DNA of 64,000 bases from Escherichia coli (GTDB lineage Bacteria; Pseudomonadota; Gammaproteobacteria; Enterobacterales; Enterobacteriaceae), in NCBI RefSeq assembly GCF_003334785.1, contig NZ_QOWV01000016.1; one strand, given 5' to 3'. The translations under genes were made by a program, and so were the position numbers. Positions 49,478-54,706 of this stretch are shown here, piece after piece. Under the pieces are notes generated by a model. That model did not search any database and was not told the DNA's origin. It saw only the letters and a list, made by a program, of their open reading frames with translations. The stretch's first letter is position 1; every line of letters starts with the position of its first letter.

Positions 49478-50176
49478 ATGATCATAAAAAAAAGCGGTGG
49501 TCGCTGGCAGCTAAGCCTGCTGGCGAGCGTGGTAATCAGTGCCTTTTTTCTCAACACAGCTTACGCCTGGCAACAAGAATATATCGTTGATACGCAACCC
49601 GGACTTTCCACAGAGCGTTACACCTGGGATAGTGATCATCAACCTGATTACAACGATATTTTGTCGCAACGTATTCAAAGTAGCCAAAGGGCGCTGGGAC
49701 TGGAAGTCAATCTGGCGGAAGAAACCCCTGTGGATGTGACCAGCAGTATGAGTATGGGCTGGAATTTTCCTTTATATGAACAGGTTACAACCGGCCCGGT
49801 CGCGGCATTACATTACGATGGCACAACCACCTCGATGTATAACGAGTTTGGCGACAGTACTACCACGCTGACCGATCCGTTATGGCATGCCAGCGTGAGT
49901 ACCTTAGGCTGGCGTGTTGACTCCCGGCTTGGCGATCTCCGACCCTGGGCGCAAATCAGCTATAACCAGCAATTTGGCGAGAATATCTGGAAGGCGCAAT
50001 CAGGCCTGAGCCGGATGACGGCGACAAACCAGAACGGCAACTGGCTGGATGTCACCGTAGGCGCTGATATGTTGCTCAATCAAAATATTGCCGCCTATGC
50101 CGCGCTAACTCAGGCAGAAAATACCACTAATAATAGCGACTATCTGTATACGATGGGGGTTAGCGCCAGATTTTAA
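49478..50176 (+). CDS. yhjY: outer-membrane autotransporter beta-barrel domain protein
   Basis: 232-codon frame from ATG 49478 (SD ggag 49466..49469); signal peptide then barrel ending ...GVSARF. Confidence 0.85.
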   Translation: MIIKKSGGRWQLSLLASVVISAFFLNTAYAWQQEYIVDTQPGLSTERYTWDSDHQPDYNDILSQRIQSSQRALGLEVNLAEETPVDVTSSMSMGWNFPLYEQVTTGPVAALHYDGTTTSMYNEFGDSTTTLTDPLWHASVSTLGWRVDSRLGDLRPWAQISYNQQFGENIWKAQSGLSRMTATNQNGNWLDVTVGADMLLNQNIAAYAALTQAENTTNNSDYLYTMGVSARF

Positions 50177-50290
50177 CGTAACAGTCACAATTGAAACCAT
50201 TAAATAACAATAGTTGTGGCGATAGTGGGTGCTAACTTACCAAATAATAAATTTGGTGAATAATTGTCGCGTCATTCATTCCTGAACTAA

Positions 50291-50321
50291 GGCATTTCAT
50301 TCCGTTCTGATGGCATTTCAT
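50291..50321 (+). promoter_or_regulatory. direct repeat GGCATTTCAT-N11-GGCATTTCAT upstream of yhjX (probable LytTR-type YpdB site)
   Basis: Exact 10-bp repeats at 50291..50300 and 50312..50321, about 85 bp upstream of the yhjX ATG. Confidence 0.6.
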
Positions 50322-50404
50322 GCCGTTTTTCCCCAGGCATAAAGTGCACTTCGTTATGGTTGTCGGCAGAGATTTTTCCTTTTTATTACTGCAGGAATAC
50401 TGCC

Positions 50405-51613
50405 ATGACACCTTCAAATTATCAGCGTACCCGCTGGCTGACACTCATCGGTACTATCATTACCCAGTTTGCGCTGGGGTCGGTTTATACCTGGAGCCTG
50501 TTTAATGGCGCGCTTTCCGCCAAGCTGGATGCGCCGGTAAGCCAGGTCGCTTTCTCTTTCGGCTTGTTAAGTCTGGGGCTGGCAATTTCGTCTTCTGTTG
50601 CGGGCAAATTACAGGAACGTTTTGGCGTTAAACGCGTCACCATGGCTTCCGGCATTTTGCTGGGATTAGGCTTCTTCCTGACAGCGCATTCTGACAACCT
50701 GATGATGCTGTGGTTAAGCGCCGGTGTGCTGGTGGGACTGGCAGATGGCGCGGGTTATCTGCTGACGCTCTCTAACTGTGTGAAGTGGTTCCCGGAGCGT
50801 AAAGGTCTGATCTCCGCGTTCGCTATCGGTTCTTATGGTCTGGGTAGCCTGGGTTTCAAATTTATCGACACGCAGCTGCTGGAAACGGTCGGTCTGGAAA
50901 AAACCTTTGTGATTTGGGGAGCGATTGCGCTGTTGATGATTGTTTTCGGCGCAACGTTAATGAAAGACGCACCAAAACAGGAAGTGAAAACCAGCAATGG
51001 TGTGGTGGAGAAAGATTACACGCTGGCAGAGTCGATGCGTAAACCGCAGTACTGGATGTTAGCGGTAATGTTCCTGACCGCCTGCATGAGCGGCCTGTAC
51101 GTGATTGGGGTAGCGAAAGATATCGCCCAAAGTCTGGCACACCTTGATGTGGTTTCCGCAGCCAATGCAGTCACTGTTATTTCCATCGCCAACCTTTCAG
51201 GTCGTCTGGTGCTGGGTATTCTGTCTGACAAAATCGCCCGTATCCGTGTTATTACCATTGGTCAGGTGATATCGCTGGTGGGTATGGCGGCCCTGCTGTT
51301 TGCACCATTGAATGCAGTGACGTTCTTTGCAGCGATTGCCTGCGTGGCATTTAACTTTGGCGGCACTATTACCGTCTTTCCGTCACTGGTCAGTGAGTTC
51401 TTTGGCCTCAATAACCTGGCGAAAAACTACGGTGTGATTTATCTCGGTTTCGGTATCGGTAGCATTTGTGGTTCGATTATCGCCTCACTGTTTGGCGGCT
51501 TCTATGTGACCTTCTACGTGATTTTCGCCCTGCTGATTCTGTCATTGGCGCTTTCTACGACGATTCGTCAGCCAGAGCAGAAAATGTTGCGTGAGGCGCA
51601 TGGCTCCCTTTAA
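50405..51613 (+). CDS. yhjX: MFS transporter (oxalate/formate antiporter family)
   Basis: Recognised N-terminus MTPSNYQRTRWLTLIGTIITQFALGSVYTW at 50405 (402 codons). Confidence 0.9.
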   Translation: MTPSNYQRTRWLTLIGTIITQFALGSVYTWSLFNGALSAKLDAPVSQVAFSFGLLSLGLAISSSVAGKLQERFGVKRVTMASGILLGLGFFLTAHSDNLMMLWLSAGVLVGLADGAGYLLTLSNCVKWFPERKGLISAFAIGSYGLGSLGFKFIDTQLLETVGLEKTFVIWGAIALLMIVFGATLMKDAPKQEVKTSNGVVEKDYTLAESMRKPQYWMLAVMFLTACMSGLYVIGVAKDIAQSLAHLDVVSAANAVTVISIANLSGRLVLGILSDKIARIRVITIGQVISLVGMAALLFAPLNAVTFFAAIACVAFNFGGTITVFPSLVSEFFGLNNLAKNYGVIYLGFGIGSICGSIIASLFGGFYVTFYVIFALLILSLALSTTIRQPEQKMLREAHGSL

Positions 51614-51936
51614 TGCTCAGCCGCGAGCTACTGGGCTTCAGCTTCCGTGTGCATCAAACGCATCAACGAAATGTATAAACAATGACTCGTAAAATTTGGG
51701 CCAATTAACTGGCCCTTTTTACTGCTTTTTGTAACGCTAAAGTCTCTTTTCAAACTTGCATTTTTGTAAATTTGTGCTTCATGCACACTCTTTCCCCACA
51801 CTTTTTCCCTTTGCTGTGGTCTACTTATTCGCGCGTGTAGATTTTACTTATCTGACTACCTCCGCACTTTTTCCCTGCCGGGCCTGAAAAGCCACTAAGC
51901 AGGGTGTTATCACCTGTTTGTCCAGGGTTTGTTTGC

Positions 51937-53628
51937 ATGAGATACATCAAATCGATTACACAGCAGAAGCTGAGCTTTTTGCTTGCAATCTATATTGGCC
52001 TTTTTATGAATGGCGCGGTTTTTTACCGCCGCTTCGGCAGCTATGCGCACGATTTTACCGTCTGGAAAGGCATTTCTGCTGTTGTTGAACTGGCCGCCAC
52101 CGTACTGGTGACCTTCTTTTTACTACGTCTTCTTTCGCTGTTTGGCCGCCGCAGCTGGCGTATTCTGGCATCGCTGGTGGTGCTCTTTTCCGCAGGTGCC
52201 AGCTATTACATGACCTTCCTTAATGTGGTCATTGGTTATGGCATCATCGCTTCCGTCATGACCACCGATATCGACCTGTCAAAAGAAGTTGTTGGTCTGA
52301 ACTTTATTCTCTGGTTAATCGCCGTTAGTGCATTGCCTCTTATCCTTATCTGGAATAACCGCTGTCGCTACACCTTGCTCCGACAACTGCGAACCCCAGG
52401 GCAGCGTATTCGCAGCCTGGCGGTCGTCGTACTGGCGGGTATTATGGTTTGGGCACCGATTCGTTTGCTGGATATCCAGCAGAAGAAAGTGGAGAGGGCG
52501 ACCGGCGTTGATTTGCCGAGTTATGGCGGTGTCGTAGCGAACTCTTATCTGCCATCAAACTGGCTTTCTGCGTTGGGGCTGTATGCCTGGGCGCGGGTCG
52601 ATGAATCTTCCGATAATAATTCATTGCTTAATCCGGCGAAGAAATTCACTTATCAGGCACCGCAAAACGTTGATGACACTTATGTCGTGTTTATCATCGG
52701 TGAAACCACGCGTTGGGACCATATGGGTATTTTCGGCTATGAGCGTAATACCACGCCGAAACTGGCCCAGGAGAAAAATCTGGCGGCGTTCCGTGGTTAC
52801 TCCTGTGATACCGCAACCAAACTCTCACTGCGTTGCATGTTTGTACGTCAGGGGGGCGCGGAAGATAATCCGCAGCGCACATTAAAAGAACAGAACATTT
52901 TCGCGGTTCTGAAGCAGTTAGGATTCAGTTCTGACCTCTACGCTATGCAGAGCGAAATGTGGTTCTACAGCAACACGATGGCGGACAACATTGCTTATCG
53001 TGAGCAGATTGGTGCGGAGCCACGTAATCGTGGCAAGCCGGTAGATGATATGTTGCTGGTAGACGAAATGCAGCAATCGCTAGGGCGCAACCCGGATGGT
53101 AAGCATCTGATCATTCTGCATACCAAAGGTTCGCATTTTAACTACACCCAGCGTTATCCGCGTAGCTTCGCGCAGTGGAAGCCGGAATGTATTGGTGTTG
53201 ATAGCGGCTGTACCAAAGCGCAGATGATCAACTCCTATGACAACTCGGTGACCTATGTGGATCACTTTATCTCCAGCGTGATTGATCAGGTTCGCGATAA
53301 GAAAGCGATTGTGTTCTACGCAGCTGACCACGGTGAGTCAATTAATGAACGCGAGCACCTGCACGGCACGCCGCGTGAACTGGCACCGCCGGAGCAGTTC
53401 CGCGTACCGATGATGGTCTGGATGTCAGATAAATATCTGGAAAATCCGGCCAATGCGCAGGCGTTTGCGCAGCTGAAAAAAGAAGCCGACATGAAAGTGC
53501 CACGCCGTCACGTAGAGCTGTACGATACCATCATGGGTTGTCTTGGCTATACTTCACCGGATGGTGGAATTAACGAAAACAACAACTGGTGTCACATCCC
53601 GCAGGCAAAAGAGGCAGCGGCTAACTAA
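51937..53628 (+). CDS. eptB: Kdo2-lipid A phosphoethanolamine transferase
   Basis: Recognised N-terminus [26 protein letters not shown] at 51937 (563 codons); sulfatase-like periplasmic domain. Confidence 0.9.
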
Positions 53629-53679
53629 GCGGCCTGCTGACTTTCTCGCCGATCAAAAGGCATTTTGCTATTAAGGGAT

Positions 53680-53708
53680 TGACGAGGGCGTATCTGCGCA
53701 GTAAGATG
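53680..53708 (+). promoter_or_regulatory. sigma70 promoter of tRNA-Pro
   Basis: -35 ttgacg (53680..53685), 17-bp spacer, -10 taagat (53703..53708), GC-rich discriminator gcgcccc, tRNA 5' end 12 nt downstream. Confidence 0.75.
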
Positions 53709-53719
53709 CGCCCCGCATT

Positions 53720-54053
<334 letters not shown>

Positions 54054-54055
54054 CG

Positions 54056-54140
54056 TAGGCCTGATAAGACGCGTCAGCGTCGCATCAGGCAAATGTGCCG
54101 GCCATTGTCGGATGCGGCGCGACCGCCTTATTCGACCTAC
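54056..54140. repeat. REP/BIME palindromic units
   Basis: gtaggcctgataagacgcgtcagcgtcgcatcaggc ... gccggccattgtcggatgcggcgcgaccgccttattcgacctac. Confidence 0.7.
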
Positions 54141-54706
54141 ACGACACACATTTCCCTGCCAAATTTGCGCCCCATATCTCACTATCCATTAACGGATTTG
54201 TGACAGAAACCATTGTCTTTTTTTATATTTGCTTAAATCTTTTTTTGCGTTACTTATGGCTGGCCCTGGCATTTTCCGCTGTGCGTTTTAGCGTTCATGG
54301 TATTAATCGCTCAGATATCCACCTTTTCCTCAGATTTTTTTCATTAAATGCATAAAACTTAATCACCAAATGTTGCTAAATATTAAGCTGATTGTTCTGG
54401 TCATGTTGGAGTAGCACAAATTTCTCTGCTGCAAATAGCTGTTTGAAGTTTTTTTAATCTTTGTTTGTGGATTCTCACCGTTGGTGTAAATCCCGGTTGG
54501 CTGTATTGACGTTTTCACATTCTGTTGACAGATTGTAGGTCACGAGGGGCATTTTATGGAGGATCCGCACTGTTACACTGATGTTAATTAGTACGGCATC
54601 CCCACCTCATAACGTTGACCCGACCGGGCAAAAAACAAAAAAGGTCAGGCAGCGACAACCCACTGCAAAGGGTTAAAACAACAAACATCACAATTGGAGC
54701 AGAATA

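What the first reader, a model, noticed from the sequence alone, without database searches (positions are those of the whole stretch)
51614..51936. Long structured leader region upstream of eptB
A 323-bp spacer precedes eptB. By established knowledge eptB is under sigmaE control and is repressed post-transcriptionally by small RNAs (MgrR), so promoter and pairing sites should lie here. I could not confidently place the sigmaE -35/-10 by eye, so I flag the region without assigning sites.
Basis: established knowledge. Interest (0 to 1): 0.25.

Follow-up and report, generated by a model that had tools for sequence, protein, structure and literature searches.

The report
Known eptB promoter and short leader
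The 323-bp gap before eptB in E. coli K-12 is real, but only its last 106 bases are mRNA leader; it holds the already published terminator, weak sigmaE-type promoter and MgrR small-RNA pairing site, so it is ordinary known biology.

Summary
The window is identical to E. coli K-12 MG1655 here. The 323-bp yhjX-eptB spacer (51614-51936) exists as described, but it is not one long leader.

It has three parts:
- The yhjX 3' UTR, ending in an intrinsic terminator at 51698-51720.
- About 110 bp of promoter region.
- A 106-nt 5' UTR that starts at 51831.

The promoter (CACACTT 51797-51803, 16-nt spacer, TCTAC 51820-51824) has exactly the geometry of the sigmaE promoters of micA and rybB. Its match to the consensus is weak, though, and no better than chance. 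What places it is the published 5' end together with a sharp footprint across about 75 enterobacterial species.

The MgrR site (51930-51944, across the ATG) pairs with MgrR U55-A68, as published. It runs 8 nt past the flagged interval.

The leader is not unusually stable (z = -0.04), though one stem covaries.

All of this is published (Moon and Gottesman 2009; Moon 2013; Kwiatkowska 2018; Adams 2021), so the finding is already known and of low interest.

Two side observations:
- A conserved TTTTGTAAA-centred palindrome lies at -64.5, and its arms covary in other genera.
- The spacer is where the lpf fimbrial operon is inserted in about a fifth of E. coli genomes.

The parts
51614..51697 (+). 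yhjX 3' UTR segment. Together with the last 12 nt of yhjX it forms block 51602-51697, which is replaced in E. coli strains that carry the lpf island.
   Evidence: In lpf-positive genomes the homology with K-12 stops at 51601 and resumes at 51698 or 51754.
51698..51720 (+). Intrinsic terminator: GGGCCA-ATTAAC-TGGCCC followed by TTTTT. In K-12 it ends the yhjX transcript.
   Evidence: The terminator scan found a stem of 6 pairs (5 G-C), a 6-nt loop and a T-run. The same hairpin sits 13 nt after the lpfE stop codon in strain 2012EL-2448.
51758..51777 (.). Degenerate palindrome GCATTTTTGTAAATTTGTGC with the conserved core TTTTGTAAAT (51762-51771). Its centre is at -64.5 from the TSS.
   Evidence: The core lies at a fixed distance from the promoter in about 70 of 80 species. 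The arms form 13-16 bp hairpins in 41 species and covary. The core occurs only once in the 64-kb window.
51780..51790 (.). Conserved upstream block CATGCACACTC, which reads GATCACAyTC in most genera. It spans -51 to -41.
   Evidence: Ungapped stack of the upstream regions of 79 species.
51797..51803 (+). -35-like element CACACTT (sigmaE consensus GGAACTT), at -34 to -28.
   Evidence: It is the best consensus hit in the spacer. ACTTTT is 92-99% conserved in 79 species. It sits at the same position as the -35 of micA and rybB.
51820..51824 (+). -10-like element TCTAC (sigmaE TCTGA/TCAAA) inside the conserved block CTGTGGTCTACTTA (51814-51827). The spacer to the -35 is 16 nt.
   Evidence: GGTCTAC is 89-100% conserved. 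It starts at -11, as in micA and rybB.
51831..51831 (+). eptB transcription start. A second source puts it at 51833.
   Evidence: PMC6239178 numbers AU1 as +11 to +23 and AU2 as +36 to +42, which gives 51831. The native part of the Adams et al. 5' UTR cloning primer starts at 51833.
51831..51936 (+). eptB 5' UTR, 106 nt.
   Evidence: Derived from the TSS above and the ATG at 51937. UTR length is conserved: the -10 element lies 100-125 nt from the ATG in most species.
51841..51853 (+). AU1, AUUUUACUUAUCU, a U-rich single-stranded motif in the loop of SL1.
   Evidence: The sequence sits exactly where PMC6239178 places it.
51866..51872 (+). AU2, ACUUUUU, the Hfq-binding motif needed for MgrR regulation.
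   Evidence: PMC6239178. The sequence is read directly from the window.
51873..51904 (+). SL2, a G+C-rich stem-loop (CCCUGC...GCAGGG).
   Evidence: It is in the MFE fold. The consensus fold of 16 Escherichia, Citrobacter and Salmonella sequences has compensatory changes at 5 of its pairs. Published nuclease probing also supports it.
51913..51927 (+). SL3 (CCUG...CAGG), a 4-bp stem that contains the Shine-Dalgarno sequence CAGGG (51923-51927).
   Evidence: PMC6239178.
51930..51944 (+). MgrR pairing site, UGUUUGCAUG-a-GAUA. It covers the AUG at 51937-51939.
   Evidence: It is the best duplex in the region, about -19 kcal/mol, with MgrR nt 54-72 (core U55-A68). This is the same MgrR region as published. 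TTGCATGA is at least 90% conserved in 67 species.
51948..51948 (+). Term-seq RNA 3' end of the MgrR-dependent 5' fragment.
   Evidence: K-12 coordinate 3710464, minus strand, 11 nt into eptB. It was mapped with g = 3762412 - w. The fragment decreases in a mgrR deletion.
51937..53628 (+). eptB coding sequence (Kdo2-lipid A phosphoethanolamine transferase).
51862..51876 (+). Second copy of a 15-nt direct repeat, CCgCACTTTTTCCCT. The first copy is at 51796-51810 and covers the -35.
   Evidence: the repeat finder gives 14 of 15 identical, 66 bp apart. Unexplained.

Best explanation
The spacer is an ordinary composite intergenic region with four functional pieces.

1. The yhjX transcript ends at an intrinsic terminator (51698-51720).
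2. eptB is transcribed from one promoter. Its -35 (CACACTT) and -10 (TCTAC) are 16 nt apart and sit at -34 and -11, the geometry of sigmaE promoters. Both elements are degenerate. Transcription starts at 51831 (or 51833) and gives a 106-nt leader.
3. In the leader, U-rich motifs AU1 and AU2 recruit Hfq.
4. The PhoP-dependent sRNA MgrR (nt U55-A68) pairs with 51930-51944 across the start codon. This blocks translation and leaves a stable 5' fragment that ends near 51948.

What I showed here: the coordinates, the geometry, the conservation and the complementarity. What comes from the literature, not tested here: sigmaE dependence, Hfq binding and repression by MgrR and ArcZ.
For: - Identity with K-12.
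- Terminator.
- The TSS follows from two independent papers, within 2 nt of each other.
- The promoter hit is the top consensus match in the spacer.
- It has exactly the -34 / 16 nt / -11 geometry of the sigmaE promoters of micA and rybB.
- In 79 species the -35 core ACTTTT and the -10 block GGTCTAC are 89-100% conserved at fixed spacing, while the spacer between them is only 39-67% conserved.
- Some genera have the canonical AACTTTT at the same place.
- The best MgrR duplex falls on the start codon and uses MgrR U55-A68, as published.
- TTGCATGA is nearly invariant.
- The Term-seq 3' end lies 4 nt after the duplex, and the fragment depends on MgrR.
- Reviews state the sigmaE, MgrR and ArcZ regulation.
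Against: - The consensus score of the promoter (12.5 of 17) is reached by 76% of random sequences of the same composition. Sequence alone therefore does not identify it as sigmaE-type.
- From memory, the abstract of Moon et al. 2013 says the promoter lacks the expected sigmaE motifs and that sigma70 uses the same start. I could not retrieve that paper.
- The MgrR duplex energy is only in the top 0.65% of 32-nt windows in the 64-kb window, so it is not unique.
- The published 5' fragment is about 140 nt, whereas 51831-51948 is 118 nt.
Confidence: 0.9

Rival explanations
1. The whole 323 bp is a long structured leader (riboswitch, attenuator or similar) transcribed with eptB.
For: The fold of the full spacer has z = -1.65. 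yhjX and eptB are on the same strand, so some read-through is conceivable. A roughly 400-nt eptB-probe species was seen on northern blots.
Against: A canonical terminator sits at 51698-51720. Published 5' ends are at 51831 and 51833. There is no Rfam hit at E <= 1. The first 84-140 bp are replaced by a 5.9-kb fimbrial operon in about 1,100 E. coli genomes without touching the promoter-proximal part. The true leader folds with z = -0.04.
Confidence: 0.03
2. The promoter is in effect a sigma70 promoter, and the sigmaE effect on eptB is indirect.
For: The match to the sigmaE consensus is not above chance. From memory, Moon 2013 reports that sigma70 starts at the same point.
Against: No sigma70-like -35/-10 pair is found in 51400-52100. 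The geometry is identical to micA and rybB. ACTTTT-N16-TCTAC is conserved, with canonical AACTTTT in some genera. Distant genera carry a second, fully canonical sigmaE promoter (GAACTC-N16-TCTGA) in front of eptB. From memory, Moon 2013 showed direct sigmaE transcription in vitro.
Confidence: 0.07
3. The TTTTGTAAA-centred palindrome (51758-51777) is only a decayed remnant of the ancestral 3'-end hairpin of the upstream gene. It has no present function in E. coli.
For: 41 species have a strong hairpin here, and only 1 of them has another terminator. Of the 38 species with a weak hairpin, 27 have a separate canonical terminator, as K-12 does. The arms covary: 113 double-change cells against 63 +/- 7 in shuffles.
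Against: The core TTTGTAAA and its exact distance to the -35 stay conserved even where the arms have decayed. The hairpin lacks a U-tract, so it is not a canonical terminator. The O157 lpf junction at 51754 leaves the element intact.
Confidence: 0.4
4. The spacer hides an unannotated small protein or sRNA gene.
For: Mechanical ORFs exist: 51756-51887 on the + strand (43 aa, TTG start) and 51628-51801 on the - strand (57 aa, GTG start).
Against: There is no annotation in K-12 and no Rfam hit. The ORFs use non-ATG starts and cross the terminator, the promoter or the lpf junctions. The conservation pattern is in blocks at fixed spacing, not codon-like.
Confidence: 0.03

Closest known systems
[quoted passage not shown] 2013, Schu et al. 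2015, Kwiatkowska et al. 2018 and Adams et al. 2021
   Same: The sequence is identical. AU1, AU2, SL2-SL4, the MgrR site and the Term-seq 3' end all fall where those papers place them.
   Different: Nothing differs; this is the same locus. The only additions here are window coordinates and the cross-species footprint.
Canonical sigmaE (RpoE, ECF) promoters such as micA and rybB
   Same: -35 at -34, a 16-nt spacer, -10 at -11, and G as the start base. The GTCT.. -10 block and T-rich DNA after the -35 are shared.
   Different: The -35 is CACACTT rather than xGAACTy, and the -10 is TCTAC rather than TCTGA/TCTTA. The score is 12.5 against 15.5 of 17. There is no A/T-rich UP-like tract at -40 to -58 as in micA and rybB.
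Hfq-dependent sRNA repression at the start codon (for example MicA-ompA, ChiX-chiP)
   Same: A short imperfect duplex over the RBS/AUG, an Hfq site upstream, and a stable 5' fragment ending just after the duplex.
   Different: MgrR is a Class II sRNA, so the mRNA carries U-rich rather than ARN Hfq motifs.
lpf (long polar fimbriae) island between yhjX and eptB in E. coli O157:H7 and other strains
   Same: The same chromosomal slot. The junctions map inside this spacer.
   Different: K-12 has no lpf genes. It keeps the hairpin that terminates lpfE in one lpf variant.

Membership tests
sigmaE (RpoE/sigma24) promoter | -35 element close to GGAACTT | tested here: inconclusive
   K-12 has CACACTT, 4 of 7. 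Most species have GACACTT, 5 of 7. Atlantibacter and Franconibacter have AACTTTT. The consensus itself is from my own knowledge of Rhodius et al. 2006.
sigmaE (RpoE/sigma24) promoter | 16 +/- 1 nt spacer, with the -10 starting about 11 nt before the start site | tested here: met
   The spacer is 16 nt, with the -35 at -34 and the -10 at -11. This is identical to micA and rybB.
sigmaE (RpoE/sigma24) promoter | -10 element TCNAA (TCTGA/TCAAA) | tested here: inconclusive
   TCTAC: T, C, T and A match, and the last base is C instead of A. It is invariant across 79 species.
sigmaE (RpoE/sigma24) promoter | Overall consensus match better than chance | tested here: not met
   The score of 12.5 of 17 is reached by 76% of 500 random sequences. 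The controls micA and rybB score 15.5.
sigmaE (RpoE/sigma24) promoter | Transcription depends on sigmaE in vivo and in vitro | not testable with these tools
   Stated in reviews. The primary papers are not held.
MgrR (Hfq-dependent sRNA) target site | Complementarity to the MgrR single-stranded region U55-A68 | tested here: met
   51930-51939 pairs with MgrR 59-68 (10 bp, one G-U). 51941-51944 pairs with MgrR 55-58. The energy is about -19 kcal/mol. As a caveat, 209 of 31,984 background windows do as well.
MgrR (Hfq-dependent sRNA) target site | The site overlaps the ribosome-binding region or start codon | tested here: met
   The duplex covers the AUG at 51937-51939.
MgrR (Hfq-dependent sRNA) target site | The target site is conserved across species | tested here: met
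   T103-A110 (TTGCATGA) is at least 90% conserved in 67 leaders. Most species read TGCTTGCATG, a perfect complement of MgrR 59-68.
MgrR (Hfq-dependent sRNA) target site | Repression in vivo, restored by compensatory mutations | not testable with these tools
   Published by Moon and Gottesman 2009, as cited.
Intrinsic (Rho-independent) terminator | G+C-rich hairpin followed by a T-run | tested here: met
   51698-51715 has a stem of 6 pairs (5 G-C) and a 6-nt loop, followed by TTTTT.
Curated cis-regulatory RNA (riboswitch, leader, thermometer; Rfam 15) | Covariance-model match | tested here: not met
   There is no hit in 51614-51936 at E <= 1. The hits nearby are tRNA-Pro, RtT and naRNA4 only.
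Structured RNA leader | Folding energy below shuffled controls, or covariation | tested here: inconclusive
   z = -0.04 for 51831-51963. There is no consensus structure across 67 species. SL2 shows compensatory changes at 5 pairs among 16 close relatives.

The most novel reading that the evidence does not exclude
The TTTTGTAAA-centred palindrome just upstream of the eptB promoter (K-12 51758-51777, centre -64.5) may be an undescribed cis element with two jobs. Its core is kept at a fixed distance from the -35 in about 70 enterobacterial species, which suggests an upstream promoter element or a binding site for an unknown regulator of eptB. Its covarying arms form the 3'-end hairpin of the upstream gene wherever no separate terminator exists. 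In the Citrobacter freundii group and in Salmonella subspecies arizonae and diarizonae the core is inverted (TTTACAAA). That favours recognition at the DNA level by a symmetric factor. I found no paper containing this sequence.
Probability: 0.3. Interest if true: 0.4.

Novelty: already known. Interest (0 to 1): 0.15.

Why it matters
EptB adds phosphoethanolamine to the outer Kdo of LPS and affects resistance to polymyxin and Ca2+. Its control by sigmaE, by the PhoQ/PhoP system through MgrR, and by ArcZ is a textbook case of layered envelope regulation.

For a genome scan, the value of this check is mainly negative. The flagged spacer is fully accounted for by published elements, and it should not be filed as a long structured leader.

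Two things may be useful beyond that:
- The cross-species footprint shows that the non-consensus bases of the promoter are themselves conserved.
- The footprint also exposes one conserved upstream element with no assigned function.

Tried and rejected
- Unconstrained RNAduplex of MgrR or ArcZ against the whole region gave meaningless 150-nt 'interactions'. It was replaced by a 32-nt sliding scan. An earlier script timed out.
- ArcZ: the best local candidates are 51901-51928 (a CCAGGG:CCCUGG core at the SD) and, more strongly, 51620-51648 in the yhjX 3' UTR, which is not in the eptB mRNA. I could not check either against Moon 2013 and assign no ArcZ site.
- The sigma70 scan found nothing in 51400-52100.
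- RNAalifold on all 67 leaders gave no structure, because the alignment of the variable middle is poor. Only the subset of close relatives was informative.
- By eye and from memory I compared the palindrome with CRP (half-sites 1 bp too close), TyrR, CpxR, PhoP, ArcA, NsrR, OmpR and LysR-type T-N11-A boxes. None fitted, and none was tested with a tool.
- The primary papers Moon and Gottesman 2009 and Moon et al. 2013 are not in the library.
- The Salmonella sigmaE ChIP-seq paper does not mention eptB.
- Literal searches for the promoter and palindrome sequences found no paper.
- BLAST of the K-12-specific block 51602-51697 against two lpf islands found no remnant of lpf genes.

Full report
**Observation**

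RefSeq annotation of an identical K-12 record names the flanking genes yhjX (L-lactate MFS transporter) and eptB (Kdo2-lipid A phosphoethanolamine transferase). proK, RtT and dppA lie downstream. Window 49912-54412 is 100% identical to NC_000913.3 3708000-3712500 in reverse orientation, which gives the mapping g = 3762412 - w. The spacer is 44% G+C against 51% for the window. No Rfam family matches it, even at E <= 1.

**Anatomy**

An intrinsic terminator (GGGCCA-ATTAAC-TGGCCC, then TTTTT) lies at 51698-51720.

The published literature fixes the eptB 5' end:
- Kwiatkowska et al. 2018 (PMC6239178) place the motif AUUUUACUUAUCU at +11 to +23 and ACUUUUU at +36 to +42 of the 5' UTR. In the window these are 51841-51853 and 51866-51872, so +1 = 51831.
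- The native part of the primer that Adams et al. 2021 (PMC7815308) used to clone the 5' UTR from its TSS begins at 51833.

The leader is therefore 104-106 nt, not 323.

The same papers describe four stem-loops. One is a G+C-rich SL2. Another is a 4-bp SL3 that holds the Shine-Dalgarno sequence. SL4 contains the MgrR site, which overlaps the AUG. The MFE fold of 51831-51963 reproduces these.

**Promoter**

A weighted consensus scan (GGAACTT, 15-17 nt, TC[TA][GA]A; the consensus is from my own knowledge of Rhodius et al. 2006) ranks CACACTT(51797)-N16-TCTAC(51820) first in the spacer on either strand. Its score of 12.5 of 17 is nevertheless reached by 76% of random sequences of the same composition.

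As positive controls I took the sigmaE promoters of micA and rybB from K-12. Both score 15.5, with the -35 at -34, a 16-nt spacer and the -10 at -11. This is exactly the geometry of the eptB hit relative to 51831.

Eighty enterobacterial loci that encode EptB give a sharp footprint:
- ACTTTT of the -35 is 92-99% conserved.
- GGTCTAC of the -10 is 89-100% conserved.
- The 16-nt spacer keeps its length but is only 39-67% conserved.
- The -10 lies 100-125 nt from the ATG in most species.

Atlantibacter and Franconibacter carry the canonical AACTTTT. Buttiauxella, Dryocola, Tenebrionibacter and one Enterobacter strain have an additional fully canonical GAACTC-N16-TCTGA about 45 nt before the ATG.

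Reviews state that RpoE activates eptB transcription. From memory, the abstract of Moon et al. 2013 says the promoter lacks the expected sigmaE motifs, and that sigmaE acts directly, from the same start as sigma70. I could not retrieve that paper. That recollection fits what I see: correct geometry, degenerate hexamers.

**MgrR**

I took the 98-nt MgrR sequence from K-12. A sliding 32-nt duplex scan of 51614-52036 against MgrR nt 28-72 puts the best duplex (-19 kcal/mol) at 51927-51945 with MgrR 54-72. Its core has two parts:
- 51930-51939 (UGUUUGCAUG) pairs with MgrR 59-68.
- 51941-51944 (GAUA) pairs with MgrR 55-58.

This is exactly the U55-A68 region reported to pair with eptB.

The energy alone is not decisive: 209 of 31,984 windows across the 64 kb do as well. 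Three further points support the site:
- TTGCATGA is at least 90% conserved in 67 leaders, and most species read TGCTTGCATG, a perfect complement.
- The Term-seq 3' end at K-12 3710464, which is window 51948, lies 4 nt after the duplex.
- The 5' fragment detected with a probe complementary to 51898-51942 drops in a mgrR deletion.

The fragment is reported as about 140 nt, whereas 51831-51948 is 118 nt. I leave this small discrepancy open.

I could not place the ArcZ site.

Wang et al. 2015 also report translational activation of eptB by RyhB.

**'Structured'**

The leader folds no better than shuffles (z = -0.04). No consensus structure emerges from 67 species. Among 16 Escherichia, Citrobacter, Salmonella and Intestinirhabdus sequences, SL2 keeps pairing through compensatory changes at five pairs, and SL3 and SL4 are retained. 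The leader therefore has real but modest local structure.

**Population and synteny**

The promoter-proximal 183 bp (51754-51936) are present in 5,346 of 5,426 complete E. coli genomes. Only 4,220 carry the full spacer. In the others, including O157:H7, the lpfABCDE fimbrial operon lies between yhjX and eptB.

The junctions are:
- Left junction at 51601/51602, inside the last codons of yhjX.
- Right junction at 51754 in the O157 type.
- Right junction at 51698 in a second type, where the K-12 'yhjX terminator' hairpin sits 13 nt after the lpfE stop and yhjX has its own terminator.

yhjX next to eptB is the common arrangement, seen in 75 of 80 species.

**Upstream element**

Stacking the 79 anchored promoter regions without gaps shows two further conserved blocks at fixed distance:
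- TTTTGTAAA (K-12 51762-51770).
- GATCACAyTC (K-12 CATGCACACTC, 51780-51790).

TTTGTAAA is the centre of a palindrome. In 41 species the palindrome folds into a hairpin of -15.5 to -22.5 kcal/mol, with genus-specific but complementary arms. In the Citrobacter freundii group and in Salmonella subspecies arizonae and diarizonae the centre is inverted.

Only 1 of these 41 species has a separate terminator upstream. In contrast, 27 of the 38 species with a weak hairpin do, K-12 among them.

On the alignment, 113 cells change on both sides and keep pairing, against 63 +/- 7 in shuffles (0 of 500). The covariation score exceeds all slid registers.

The hairpin has no U-tract. I read it as the 3'-end hairpin of the upstream gene, whose central 9 bp are also constrained by something tied to the eptB promoter (centre at -64.5). 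In K-12 only the core and short arms remain. I found no paper containing these sequences.

**Verdict**

The finding is already known and of low interest. The upstream palindrome is the only item that may be new.

Noticed in passing
window 51601-51754 (junctions); loci L005-L008: About 1,100 of 5,346 E. coli genomes carry the lpfABCDE long polar fimbriae operon (about 5.9 kb) inserted in this spacer. The left junction is inside the last codons of yhjX (51601/51602). The right junction is at 51754 (O157:H7 type) or 51698. In the second type the K-12 'yhjX terminator' hairpin is the terminator of lpfE.
   Followed up: yes
window 51758-51790; loci L009-L088, about 45-75 nt upstream of the conserved TCTAC: A conserved TTTTGTAAA core lies at a fixed distance from the eptB promoter, at the centre of a palindrome. 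The arms of the palindrome covary between genera. It is a strong hairpin in 41 of 79 species, almost only where no separate terminator exists. The core is inverted in the Citrobacter freundii group and in Salmonella subspecies arizonae and diarizonae. A second conserved block, GATCACAyTC, follows. No function is assigned.
   Followed up: partly
window 51796-51810 and 51862-51876: A 15-nt direct repeat CC(a/g)CACTTTTTCCCT, 14 of 15 identical and 66 bp apart. One copy covers the -35 element, and the other covers the Hfq-binding AU2 motif and the 5' arm of SL2. A weaker third copy is at 51783-51797. Unexplained.
   Followed up: no
loci L064, L072, L078, L082, L087, about 39-50 nt upstream of the eptB ATG: Buttiauxella, Dryocola, Tenebrionibacter and one Enterobacter strain have a fully canonical sigmaE promoter (GAACTC-N16-GTCTGAGT) close to the ATG. 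Where an anchor is present, this is in addition to the distal conserved promoter. It suggests promoter turnover under continued sigmaE control.
   Followed up: no
window 53716-54137: Downstream of eptB, Rfam finds tRNA-Pro (proK, 53720-53793), an RtT element (53831-53964, 101 bits) and a naRNA4/REP-type element (54058-54137, hits on both strands) before dppA.
   Followed up: no
window 51647-51662 and 51773-51788: A 16-nt inverted repeat (81% complementary, 110 nt apart) links the yhjX 3' UTR with the region between the palindrome and the -35. It is probably chance.
   Followed up: no
window 51879, 51894, 51872 versus L007 (O157:H7): O157:H7 differs from K-12 inside SL2 (C51879 to T and A51894 to G) and in AU2 (T51872 to C). 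The promoter from 51762 to 51871 is identical. I did not check whether the SL2 pair of changes is compensatory.
   Followed up: no
hit H1 (NZ_CP119441.1, E. coli O121) at the yhjX-eptB junction: An IS1A element is annotated within the region matched by 51400-52100 in this strain. That is another sign that the spacer tolerates insertions.
   Followed up: no
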